A stretch of 64,000 nucleotides of DNA from Candidatus Bruticola sp. (GTDB lineage Bacteria > Vulcanimicrobiota > Xenobia > Xenobiales > Xenobiaceae). Each line of letters starts with the position of its first letter. The first letter of the stretch is position 1. The translations under genes and the position numbers were made by a program. Shown here piece after piece: positions 33,689 through 34,402 of the stretch. The notes beneath the pieces were generated by a model, which worked only from the letters and a program-made list of their open reading frames with translations, was not told where the DNA came from and did not search any database. The stretch is taken from positions 91,452 to 155,451 of the forward strand of contig JBJEGD010000026.1 of the NCBI GenBank assembly GCA_051874735.1, in the 5' to 3' direction.

Positions 33689-34402
33689 ATGGAACAGGGA
33701 CTCATACATACTAGCGCTTGTATTGATGTCTTCGCCTCTCTTGGAGAGGGATGCCGAGTCGGAGCTATGGCTGTTATTGAAAGTGGAGCCCAAATTGGCT
33801 GCGGAGCTGAAATCGGTCCTAAAGTTTATATCGGACGCAACGTTTCTATCGGTGAAAGAGCTGTTATAAAGTGCGGTGCTGTTATTATGGATGGCGTTGT
33901 TGTTGGCAGAGAAGCGGTAGTCGAGTCGGGGGCTGTTTTGGGAATGGATGGCTTTGGATATGTTTTTGACGGACAAAGCCATCGTAAAATTCAGCAAATA
34001 GGCAATGTTGTCATTGGGCAGGGAGCGAAAATTGGCGCTTGTTCCTGTATAGACAGGGCCGCTTCTGCTTCAACGGTCGTTGGCGATCATACTGAAATAG
34101 GTCATATGGTGATGGTCGGTCATAACAGCAAGATTGGCAGCGGGTGTCGCATTGGTGATCAGAGCGGTTTAACTGGTTCCTCTCTGGTCGGTAACGATTG
34201 TATCATCGGCTCTCAGTGTGGTATAGGTGTGCGTGTTGAACTTGGCGATGGCTGTGTGTTGCTAGATCGAGCCACGGCTATGCGCAAATATGAGCCTGGG
34301 CAGGTTCTGGCCGGACATCCAGGACGACCGGTGGCGGAGGTTCGCCGTGCAGAAGCGGCTTTTAATTTGCTGCCTAAACTTTTAAAAGATTATATTGAGT
34401 AG
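33689..34402 (+). CDS. lpxD: UDP-3-O-acylglucosamine N-acyltransferase, short form (LbH plus C-terminal helix only)
   Basis: It aligns without gaps to the E. coli LpxD catalytic region: [30 protein letters not shown]...LTGSS versus [30 protein letters not shown]...MAGSL. The His of the HN motif is present. At 237 aa it has no room for the about 100-aa N-terminal domain, because the upstream gene ends at 33688. Confidence 0.75.
   Translation: [237 protein letters not shown]

What the first reader, a model, noticed from the sequence alone, without database searches (positions are those of the whole stretch)
33689..34402. The lpxD in the canonical skp-lpxD position is an N-terminally truncated, catalytically intact form
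Seen: this 237-aa ORF starts 1 nt after the preceding OmpH gene ends, so it cannot be extended. By manual gap-free alignment it matches the E. coli LpxD LbH and C-terminal helix, including the HN catalytic motif (VGHNSKIG versus IAHNVVIG) and GS (LTGSS versus MAGSL). It lacks the roughly 100-aa N-terminal uridine-binding domain. Established: LpxD is a homotrimer. Its N-terminal domain binds the UDP moiety, and the active sites lie at subunit interfaces. Inference: the enzyme either works without that domain or borrows it from the paralogue at 45671-46654.
Basis: partly seen in the sequence, partly recalled or inferred. Interest (0 to 1): 0.62.

Follow-up and report, generated by a model that had tools for sequence, protein, structure and literature searches.

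The report
LpxD split into two complementary proteins
In this uncultured gut bacterium (Candidatus Bruticola, class Xenobia) the lipid A enzyme LpxD is encoded as a short catalytic protein plus a separate, catalytically dead paralogue. Each keeps exactly the half of the shared active site that the other has lost, so the two probably work only as a mixed complex.

Summary
ORF 33689-34402 (+) encodes a 237-aa LpxD that starts at the linker after the uridine-binding domain (UBD). Its ATG directly follows the in-frame TAA of the OmpH gene.

It is not an artefact. The short form (198-244 aa) sits in the same bamA-ompH-lpxD-lpxC-fabZ-lpxA-lpxB layout in every Xenobia lineage examined, and it is under purifying selection.

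The new finding concerns the 327-aa paralogue, which lies on the minus strand at 45671-46654. It keeps the UBD but lacks the catalytic His in 31 of 31 family members. It also lacks the oxyanion Gly and the extruding loop.

In solved LpxD structures each active site is built from two chains. One chain gives His239, Gly257 and the loop. Its neighbour gives the UBD and Asp232. The short protein keeps the first set and has lost Asp232 (Gly in 12/12, against Asp in 84/84 canonical LpxDs). The paralogue keeps Phe41 and Asp232-Asn233 in 31/31.

Both genes were found together wherever this could be tested.

Best reading: an obligate heteromeric LpxD with one complete active site per trimer. This is inferred from sequence and has not been tested experimentally.

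The parts
33689..34402 (+). Short lpxD ('S' subunit), 237 aa. It has a left-handed beta-helix and a short C-terminal helix, and no uridine-binding domain.
   Evidence: ORF. NCBIfam and Pfam. PDB sequence match. AlphaFold2 model pLDDT 96.4, with solved LpxD structures as best PDB matches. dN/dS 0.075 against the copy in L066.
33947..33997 (+). Extruding loop of the beta-helix, DGFGY...KIQQ (residues 87-103; E. coli D181-Q197, including F183).
   Evidence: Kept in 12/12 short proteins and deleted in 31/31 paralogues. In solved structures this loop comes from the catalytic-side chain.
34100..34102 (+). Gly138, at the position of E. coli Asp232.
   Evidence: Asp in 84/84 canonical LpxDs, Gly in 12/12 short proteins, Asp in 31/31 paralogues.
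34121..34126 (+). His145-Asn146, equivalent to the catalytic base His239 and Asn240.
34175..34180 (+). Gly163-Ser164, equivalent to Gly257 (oxyanion amide) and Ser258.
   Evidence: Role taken.
34232..34234 (+). Arg182, at the position of His276, which contacts the alpha-phosphate.
   Evidence: Arg in 10/12 short proteins and His in 66/84 canonical LpxDs.
34331..34396 (+). C-terminal helix (residues 215-236). The tail after the G-x-P motif is about 12 residues shorter than the canonical median.
45671..46654 (-). LpxD-like paralogue ('P' subunit), 327 aa. It has a uridine-binding domain, a degenerate beta-helix and a C-terminal helix, and no catalytic His.
   Evidence: AlphaFold2 pLDDT 85.4 overall (N-terminal domain 95-97, residues ~180-270 at 62-75), with full-length LpxD as best PDB matches. 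dN/dS 0.118 against the copy in L014.
46355..46654 (-). Uridine-binding domain of the paralogue (residues 1-100). It includes Phe47 (46514-46516), equivalent to E. coli Phe41.
   Evidence: Weak Pfam PF04613 match. It is the only such domain in the window. Phe in 31/31 paralogues. Coordinates.
46013..46018 (-). Asp213-Asn214, equivalent to E. coli Asp232-Asn233.
   Evidence: Invariant in 31/31 paralogues.
45995..45997 (-). Lys220, at the position of the catalytic His239.
   Evidence: 0/31 paralogues have His here; the residues seen are E, D, R, Q, S, K, A and N.
33197..33688 (+). OmpH/Skp-family gene that abuts the short lpxD.
36661..42286 (+). Rest of the lipid A operon: lpxC, fabZ, a UDP-GlcNAc 3-dehydrogenase-like oxidoreductase, lpxA, and lpxB fused to a second LpxB-like domain.
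43027..45678 (-). Genes downstream of the paralogue in its operon: a 190-aa membrane protein, a 281-aa UshA-type metallophosphoesterase and a 401-aa LpxB-related protein (TIGR03492).
   Evidence: The trio is conserved near the paralogue or inside the lpx operon in relatives.

Best explanation
LpxD activity (N-acylation of UDP-3-O-acyl-glucosamine, or its GlcN3N analogue) in class Xenobia is carried out by a heteromer of two LpxD-derived proteins.

The short protein S (33689-34402) supplies the catalytic side of the inter-subunit active site: the base His145, the oxyanion Gly163, the extruding loop with Phe89, and Arg182 for the alpha-phosphate. The paralogue P (45671-46654, minus strand) supplies the side that in ordinary LpxD comes from the neighbouring chain: the uridine-binding domain with Phe47, and Asp213, which binds the beta-hydroxyl of the incoming acyl chain.

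In a closed trimer, whether S2P or SP2, only the interface made of S's catalytic face and P's donor face is complete. That predicts one working site per trimer.

Shown: the domain architecture of both proteins; the residue patterns; clade-wide conservation and purifying selection; co-occurrence; and the lipid A gene context of both genes. Taken from solved structures via the literature: which chain contributes which residue. Inferred: physical association, stoichiometry and activity.
For: 1. Two-chain active site. According to review PMC6286764, section 2.1.3, the uracil, ribose and pyrophosphate of the substrate are held by the N-terminal domain of chain B (F41, Y47, N44), while H239, H276 and Q240 come from chain A. 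The acyl beta-hydroxyl is bound by D232 of chain B and Q236 of chain C, with G257 and H239 also from chain C.

2. Unbiased conservation table. It covers 42 positions that are at least 90% conserved in 84 canonical LpxDs.
- 17 positions are kept only in the 12 short proteins: D181, G182, G184, K194, P196, Q197, G199, H239, N240, G254, G257, S258, G272 and others.
- 4 positions are kept only in the 31 paralogues: E208, G228, D232, N233.
- 7 mostly Gly or Pro positions are kept in both.

3. The paralogue family. His239 is absent in 31/31, Gly257 absent in 31/31, the loop deleted in 31/31. Phe41, Asp232 and Asn233 are present in 31/31.

4. Co-occurrence.
- Same contig in this window, 11.3 kb apart.
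- Same contig in JAWDGO010000005.1 and in JBAWSS010000352.1.
- Same assembly in JAFTAM01.
- Equal contig lengths for P0005/P0244 (70,201 bp) and P0002/P0126 (24,135 bp) suggest shared contigs.
- The paralogue type was found in 20 loci from about 19 species-representative MAGs, most labelled or syntenic as Xenobia/UBP9. The other 24 loci from that scan are ordinary LpxD or more distant hexapeptide proteins of other phyla.

5. Both genes are under purifying selection, dN/dS 0.08-0.25.

6. The paralogue lies next to, or within, lipid A gene clusters.

7. One lineage (L065) has an even smaller S of 198 aa that lacks the C-terminal helix as well. This fits a catalytic core that depends on a partner.
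Against: - No direct evidence of S-P binding.
- F41A in E. coli LpxD raises the acceptor Km only 29-fold with little loss of kcat, and LpxA works with no UBD. An S homotrimer might therefore retain some activity.
- The uracil-stacking Tyr47 is not conserved in P, although Y47A had little effect in E. coli.
- S and P are not sister groups in a crude NJ tree (0/100 bootstraps), so a simple duplication followed by subfunctionalisation is not demonstrated.
- The two genes are in different operons.
- The beta-helix of P is modelled with only moderate confidence over residues ~180-270.
- Co-occurrence was tested in a handful of lineages. I could not check whole Xenobia genomes for an extra canonical lpxD.
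Confidence: 0.55

Rival explanations
1. The short LpxD works alone as a homotrimeric N-acyltransferase without a uridine-binding domain, as LpxA does. The paralogue has an unrelated role, for example a UDP-sugar-binding regulator or scaffold for the neighbouring metallophosphoesterase and LpxB-related proteins.
For: - The catalytic His, the oxyanion Gly, the loop and the ACP-contact Arg293 equivalent are all kept in S.
- His276 is replaced by Arg in 10/12 short proteins, which could strengthen phosphate binding.
- F41A in E. coli mainly affects Km.
- S and P are in separate operons.
- P travels with the metallophosphoesterase / LpxB-related trio.
Against: - Asp232 does not belong to the UBD and is invariant in 84/84 canonical LpxDs. 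It is nevertheless lost in all 12 short proteins, together with E208, G228 and N233, while precisely these residues are invariant in P.
- A regulator would not be expected to keep the acyl-binding Asp-Asn motif.
- No genome was found with S and without P.
Confidence: 0.27
2. The short protein has acquired a new function, acting on a different acceptor (not UDP-linked) or using a non-hydroxylated acyl donor. The true LpxD step is then done by another enzyme elsewhere in the genome.
For: - Residues that recognise the beta-hydroxyl are changed in S (D232 to Gly, Q236 to Met).
- S scores below the TIGR01853 equivalog cut-off.
- NCBI annotates it only as 'DapH/DapD/GlmU-related protein'.
Against: - S occupies the canonical skp-lpxD-(lpxC)-fabZ-lpxA-lpxB position in all lineages.
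- Its best sequence and structure matches are LpxD.
- No canonical LpxD labelled Xenobia, UBP9 or Bruticola appeared among the listed homologues (the best 120 of each search).
Confidence: 0.13
3. The truncation is a sequencing, assembly or gene-calling artefact, or a decaying pseudogene.
For: None beyond the short length. The source is a single metagenome-assembled genome.
Against: - The same short architecture is seen in more than 10 independent assemblies at 42-79% identity.
- The upstream gene is a complete OmpH gene.
- dN/dS is 0.075-0.195.
- No UBD-like sequence lies upstream in any frame.
Confidence: 0.01

Closest known systems
Canonical homotrimeric LpxD (UDP-3-O-acyl-glucosamine N-acyltransferase; E. 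coli 3EH0/4IHF, C. trachomatis 2IU8, P. aeruginosa 3PMO/6UED)
   Same: S has the same beta-helix fold, catalytic His-Asn, oxyanion Gly-Ser, extruding loop and gene position. P has the same three-domain architecture, with Phe41 and Asp232-Asn233.
   Different: In canonical LpxD one polypeptide carries both faces of the active site, and a trimer has three sites. Here each face survives in a different protein: S lacks the UBD and Asp232, and P lacks His239, Gly257 and the loop.
LpxA (UDP-GlcNAc O-acyltransferase)
   Same: It is a beta-helix acyl-ACP transferase that binds a UDP-sugar with no N-terminal uridine-binding domain, and it is about the size of S. It is the second-best class of structural match.
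   Different: S scores far higher to LpxD than to LpxA (207 against 79 bits). A bona fide lpxA is present at 39018-39827 (333 bits). LpxA has a helical C-terminal domain that helps bind UDP-GlcNAc, and S lacks this.
LpxD1/LpxD2 paralogue pairs (e.g. Francisella; from my own knowledge, not checked here)
   Same: Two LpxD-derived genes in one genome.
   Different: In those pairs both copies are complete, catalytically competent enzymes with different acyl-chain preference. Here neither copy has a complete active site.
Enzymes activated by a catalytically dead paralogue: trypanosomatid deoxyhypusine synthase (PMC3663545) and AdoMetDC/prozyme (PMC5201418)
   Same: An active or impaired subunit plus a dead paralogue form the functional heteromer. 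In DHS the active sites lie at subunit interfaces (abstracts listed).
   Different: These are eukaryotic proteins of unrelated folds, and their complexes have been shown experimentally. Here the complex is only predicted.
Heterotrimeric gamma-carbonic-anhydrase module of plant and protist mitochondrial complex I (CA/CAL subunits; from my own knowledge)
   Same: A left-handed beta-helix trimer made of paralogous subunits, in which not all interface sites are complete.
   Different: Different chemistry (a zinc site) and different biological context. The only link seen here is weak beta-helix sequence similarity (7ar9_z and 9f5x_u).

Membership tests
LpxD (tested on the short protein, 33689-34402) | Left-handed beta-helix of hexapeptide repeats with the LpxD-type extruding loop (GxDGFGY...KIPQxG) | tested here: met
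   Pfam Hexapep match. Loop residues D87, G88, F89, G90, K100 and Q103 are conserved. The model is a beta-helix at pLDDT 96.4 with LpxD as top PDB matches.
LpxD (tested on the short protein, 33689-34402) | Catalytic base His239 and oxyanion Gly257 | tested here: met
   His145 and Gly163 align to these positions and are invariant in 12/12 short proteins.
LpxD (tested on the short protein, 33689-34402) | N-terminal uridine-binding domain (Pfam PF04613; F41, N44, Y47) | tested here: not met
   No PF04613 match. The protein starts at about E. coli residue 97-101, and no such domain lies upstream in any frame.
LpxD (tested on the short protein, 33689-34402) | Invariant Asp232 (I-D-N motif), which binds the acyl beta-hydroxyl from the neighbouring chain | tested here: not met
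   Gly138 in this protein. Gly in 12/12 short proteins against Asp in 84/84 canonical LpxDs.
LpxD (tested on the short protein, 33689-34402) | Curated family score thresholds | tested here: inconclusive
   NF002060 (subfamily model) 207.0 bits against a cut-off of 207. TIGR01853 (equivalog model) 193.6 against 242.5, so not reached.
LpxD (tested on the short protein, 33689-34402) | Position in the bamA-skp-lpxD-fabZ-lpxA-lpxB gene cluster | tested here: met
   (E. coli for comparison).
LpxD (tested on the short protein, 33689-34402) | N-acyltransferase activity on UDP-3-O-acyl-GlcN with acyl-ACP | not testable with these tools
   Needs an enzyme assay or genetic complementation.
LpxD (tested on the paralogue, 45671-46654, minus strand) | Three-domain architecture: uridine-binding domain, beta-helix, C-terminal helix | tested here: met
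   Weak PF04613 match (23.6 bits, below the 30.8 cut-off). The model shows all three domains, with full-length LpxD as top PDB matches.
LpxD (tested on the paralogue, 45671-46654, minus strand) | Catalytic base His239, oxyanion Gly257 and the extruding loop | tested here: not met
   Lys220 sits at the His position. Across the family, His is present in 0/31, Gly257 in 0/31, and the loop is deleted in 31/31.
LpxD (tested on the paralogue, 45671-46654, minus strand) | Curated family score thresholds | tested here: not met
   NF002060 163.7 bits against 207. TIGR01853 143.6 against 242.5.
LpxA (considered for the short protein) | Match to the LpxA equivalog models, and the C-terminal Acetyltransf_11 domain | tested here: not met
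   TIGR01852 79.2 bits against 231. No PF13720 match. The real lpxA is at 39018-39827.

The most novel reading that the evidence does not exclude
Xenobia make lipid A with an obligate heterotrimeric LpxD whose shared inter-subunit active site has been divided between two paralogous proteins: a catalytic core without a UBD, and a catalytically dead donor of the UBD and Asp232. That leaves a single complete active site per trimer. I found no report of such a split-site, pseudoenzyme-dependent enzyme in the Raetz pathway or among acyl-ACP beta-helix acyltransferases.
Probability: 0.5. Interest if true: 0.78.

Novelty: new variant of a known kind. Interest (0 to 1): 0.68.

Why it matters
LpxD is an essential, heavily studied antibiotic target, and it has always been described as a homotrimer with three identical sites.

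- **A natural dissection of the active site.** If the two-protein reading is right, it shows which residues act from which chain: the UBD and Asp232 from one, and His239, Gly257 and the loop from the other.
- **Enzyme evolution.** It would be a bacterial example of a homomeric enzyme evolving into an enzyme-pseudoenzyme heteromer. It would also let the role of the uridine-binding domain be tested by simply mixing two proteins.
- **Annotation.** NCBI labels both proteins only as 'DapH/DapD/GlmU-related protein', and neither clearly passes the LpxD family thresholds. Automated pathway reconstruction could therefore wrongly score Xenobia (Eremiobacterota/Vulcanimicrobiota) as lacking LpxD, and so misjudge whether these gut and bioreactor bacteria make lipid A.

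Tried and rejected
- **Frameshift or hidden upstream domain.** Rejected. The upstream gene is a complete OmpH gene, and no UBD-like sequence occurs anywhere in the window except the paralogue.
- **Read-through fusion of OmpH and LpxD.** They are in the same frame here, separated by one TAA. Rejected, because the spacing differs in relatives: a 36-nt gap in L001 and a 1-nt overlap in L003.
- **The conserved ~600-aa gene after the short lpxD as a UBD donor.** Rejected. It starts with what looks like a secretion signal and has no significant family match.
- **C-terminal helix complementarity (short in S, long in P).** Dropped. Both tails are shorter than the canonical median: 28 and 31 residues against 40.
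- **NJ phylogeny to show that S and P arose by duplication.** Unresolved. P is monophyletic in 99/100 bootstraps and S in 48/100, but they are never sisters.
- **P0014 and P0019, the closest full-length LpxDs.** Their context is not Xenobia-like, so they are not intermediates.
- **Context of P0253, a divergent paralogue type.** Uninformative.
- **Primary LpxD papers.** Fetching them by PubMed or PMC id failed. The residue roles were taken from review PMC6286764 instead.
- **Literature searches for a UBD-less, truncated or heteromeric LpxD.** Nothing found.
- I did not use the representative-protein search or the metagenome scan, because they could not resolve genome-level co-occurrence.

Full report
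**1. The observation**

ORF 33689-34402 (+) encodes 237 aa. Its ATG directly follows the TAA of the OmpH-family gene 33197-33688, which is in the same frame, so no upstream extension is possible. The OmpH Pfam match spans residues 38-158 of that 163-aa protein.

The 237-aa protein matches positions 103-332 of the 345-position NCBIfam LpxD model NF002060. The score is 207.0 bits, exactly the cut-off, at E 4e-61. It falls short of the TIGR01853 equivalog cut-off (193.6 against 242.5) and has no Pfam LpxD N-terminal domain. Residues 7-223 align to residues 101-318 of E. coli LpxD (3eh0) with a single 1-residue gap, E 3e-32.

An AlphaFold2 model (pLDDT 96.4) is a beta-helix followed by one C-terminal helix, and its best PDB matches are LpxD structures. 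A six-frame HMM search and tblastn found only one LpxD-type N-terminal domain in the 64 kb, and it belongs to the paralogue.

The paralogue at 45671-46654 is on the minus strand, which the finding did not state.

**2. Not an artefact: a clade-wide form**

The identical protein is on record from a Candidatus Bruticola MAG. Bruticola belongs to class Xenobia of the phylum Vulcanimicrobiota/Eremiobacterota.

All of its closest full-length relatives are short (237-244 aa, 46-79% identity) and lack PF04613. The next hits, at 43% identity or less, are ordinary 335-370-aa LpxDs, including one from Eremiobacteraceae.

In five further lineages the short gene sits in the same gene order: bamA, four OmpH-like genes, short lpxD, a ~600-aa unknown gene, lpxC, fabZ, a GFO-type oxidoreductase, lpxA, lpxB. 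One of these, L065, has an even shorter gene of 198 aa that also lacks the C-terminal helix.

dN/dS for the short gene is 0.075 and 0.195 in two pairs. A frameshift or assembly error is excluded.

**3. The paralogue is not a second LpxD enzyme**

The 327-aa protein has a weak LpxD N-domain match (23.6 bits, below the cut-off of 30.8) and scores below the LpxD thresholds. Its model has the three LpxD domains, and its best PDB matches are full-length LpxDs. Confidence is high for the N-terminal domain (95-97) and only 62-75 for residues ~180-270.

Its family has 31 distinct sequences down to 32% identity. It is monophyletic in 99/100 NJ bootstraps and was found in 20 loci from about 19 species-representative genomes. 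Most of these are labelled or syntenic as Xenobia/UBP9. A few are named Burkholderiales or Riflebacteria but carry the same paralogue type, and only one of them shows Xenobia lipid A synteny.

Every family member lacks the 19-residue DGFGY...KIPQ loop. None has His at the position of the catalytic His239, and none has Gly257. All keep Phe41 and the Asp232-Asn233 motif. dN/dS is 0.12-0.25, so it is a functional protein and not a pseudogene.

**4. Why the two residue patterns fit together**

Review PMC6286764 summarises the C. trachomatis and E. coli LpxD structures. UDP-GlcNAc is bound by the N-terminal domain of one chain (F41, Y47, N44, S30, Q32 in E. coli numbering) and by the beta-helix of the adjacent chain (H239, H276). 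The beta-hydroxyl of the incoming acyl chain is bound by D232 of the chain that gives the N-terminal domain, and by Q236 of the chain that gives H239 and the G257 amide. The 3-acyl pocket uses the extruding loop of the catalytic chain. Each site therefore has a catalytic side and a donor side.

I took all 42 positions that are at least 90% conserved in 84 canonical LpxDs and asked which family keeps them.
- 17 are kept only in the short family: D181, G182, G184, K194, P196, Q197, G199, V177, V201, T223, H239, N240, G254, G257, S258, G272, L323.
- 4 are kept only in the paralogue family: E208, G228, D232, N233. V207 and A211 are mostly kept there as well.
- 7 mostly Gly or Pro positions are kept in both.

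Asp232 is Asp in 84/84 canonical LpxDs, Gly in 12/12 short proteins and Asp in 31/31 paralogues. The short family also has Met for Q236 (11/12) and Arg for H276 (10/12).

So the short protein keeps the catalytic side and has lost the whole donor side, not only the N-terminal domain. The paralogue shows the mirror image.

**5. Co-occurrence**

I found no such case.
- The two genes are 11.3 kb apart in the window.
- They lie on the same contig in GCA_032941855.1: JAWDGO010000005.1, where loci L001 and L058 are adjacent.
- They lie on the same contig in GCA_037975375.1.
- They are in the same assembly in GCA_017458675.1.
- Two further pairs share the length of their longest contig, which suggests shared contigs.

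In Bruticola-like genomes the paralogue operon converges on the lpx operon. In the L009 lineage, three genes that follow the paralogue here (a small membrane protein, a metallophosphoesterase and an LpxB-related protein) sit inside the lpx operon itself.

Limits:
- The L065 lineage was not tested for a paralogue.
- I could not scan whole genomes for an additional canonical lpxD. None labelled Xenobia appeared among the listed homologues.

**6. Interpretation**

The best-supported reading is an obligate heteromer. S provides the base, the oxyanion hole, the loop and the acyl-ACP side. P provides uridine binding and Asp232.

In a cyclic trimer each interface takes the catalytic face of one subunit and the donor face of the next. 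Only an interface that pairs S's catalytic face with P's donor face is complete, so either S2P or SP2 gives one full site per trimer.

This reading explains three things: why an otherwise invariant residue outside the missing domain is also lost in S, why P keeps acyl-binding and uridine-binding residues while its catalytic face drifts, and why the two genes co-occur.

It remains an inference. I could not run a multimer prediction, and there are no experimental data. I put it at about 0.55.

The main rival is that S works alone, as LpxA does, while P does something else. This is supported by the mild effect of F41A in E. coli (a 29-fold rise in Km) and by the separate operons. It is weakened by the Asp232 pattern. 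A new function for S is possible but fits its canonical position poorly.

**7. Comparison with known systems, and novelty**

S fails two defining LpxD features (the UBD and Asp232). P fails three (His239, Gly257 and the loop). Neither is a complete LpxD, yet both clearly derive from LpxD.

Full-text searches found no report of a UBD-less, truncated or heteromeric LpxD. The closest concepts are the dead-paralogue activators of trypanosomatid DHS and AdoMetDC and, from my own knowledge, the mixed beta-helix trimers of complex I gamma-carbonic anhydrases.

I class it as a new variant of a known kind. The origin of P, whether by duplication within Xenobia or by acquisition, is unresolved.

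Noticed in passing
window 39839-42286 (+); compare L001 16170-18514: lpxB is an 815-aa fusion of a bona fide LpxB (TIGR00215, 248.6 bits) with a second, divergent LpxB-like domain. In Xenobium-type genomes the two halves are separate adjacent genes of 386 and 395 aa. Together with the 401-aa protein at 43027-44232, that makes three GT19-like domains near the lipid A cluster.
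   Followed up: partly
window 43027-44232 (-): This 401-aa protein passes the NCBIfam TIGR03492 threshold ('lipid-A-disaccharide synthase-related protein', 273.7 against 219.2 bits). It is conserved next to the metallophosphoesterase in all Xenobia loci seen.
   Followed up: partly
window 44235-45080 (-): This 281-aa metallophosphoesterase has 5'-nucleotidase/UshA-type motifs (HTNDMHG, GD, GNRE, GGHTH) and weak matches to UshA UDP-sugar hydrolase. No LpxH or LpxI was detected among the proteins scanned, which cover about 35 of the window's 50 large ORFs. It could therefore be the UDP-2,3-diacylglucosamine hydrolase of this clade.
   Followed up: partly
window 34614-36458 (+): A 614-aa protein with an apparent signal peptide and no significant family match lies between the short lpxD and lpxC. 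A 582-610-aa counterpart occupies the same place in every Xenobia locus examined.
   Followed up: no
window 37984-38967 (+): The Gfo/Idh/MocA oxidoreductase between fabZ and lpxA best matches UDP-N-acetylglucosamine 3-dehydrogenase (274.9 bits, below the cut-off of 450). This is GnnA-like and hints at a lipid A based on GlcN3N. No partner aminotransferase turned up among the proteins I scanned; about 15 of the window's large ORFs were not scanned.
   Followed up: no
window 30176-33688 (+): Four consecutive OmpH/Skp-like genes (331, 479, 186 and 163 aa) follow a 1030-aa BamA. The 479-aa one is a long, highly charged protein, probably coiled coil, with no OmpH Pfam match. The tandem arrangement is conserved across Xenobia.
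   Followed up: no
L065 8001-8597: A divergent Xenobia-like lineage (Logan SRR23272280) has an lpxD of only 198 aa in the same synteny. It lacks the UBD, the first beta-helix coil and the whole C-terminal helix, yet keeps the His-Asn, Gly-Ser and loop motifs. lpxA there is followed by a GT4 glycosyltransferase instead of lpxB.
   Followed up: partly
window 46645-47964 (-) and 47967-48614 (-): A PmbA/TldD-like protein of 439 aa (C-terminal domain only, weak TldD matches) overlaps the start of the paralogue by 10 nt, and an unknown 215-aa gene lies upstream of it. In Bruticola-like genomes it overlaps the paralogue. In Xenobium-like genomes a PmbA/TldD-like gene lies about 3 kb upstream of the paralogue, separated from it by other genes.
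   Followed up: no
L017, L026, L029 (record titles): MAGs labelled 'Candidatus Riflebacteria' (L017) and 'Burkholderiales' (L026, L029) carry the Xenobia-type paralogue. L017 also aligns to the window's lipid A region at about 71% nucleotide identity. The labels probably reflect mis-binning or mis-classification.
   Followed up: no
window 51009-53778 (+): lptC, lptB and a single lptF/G-family permease gene lie just beyond the paralogue operon. The region from 26.9 to 53.8 kb is thus one large outer-membrane and LPS biogenesis island.
   Followed up: no
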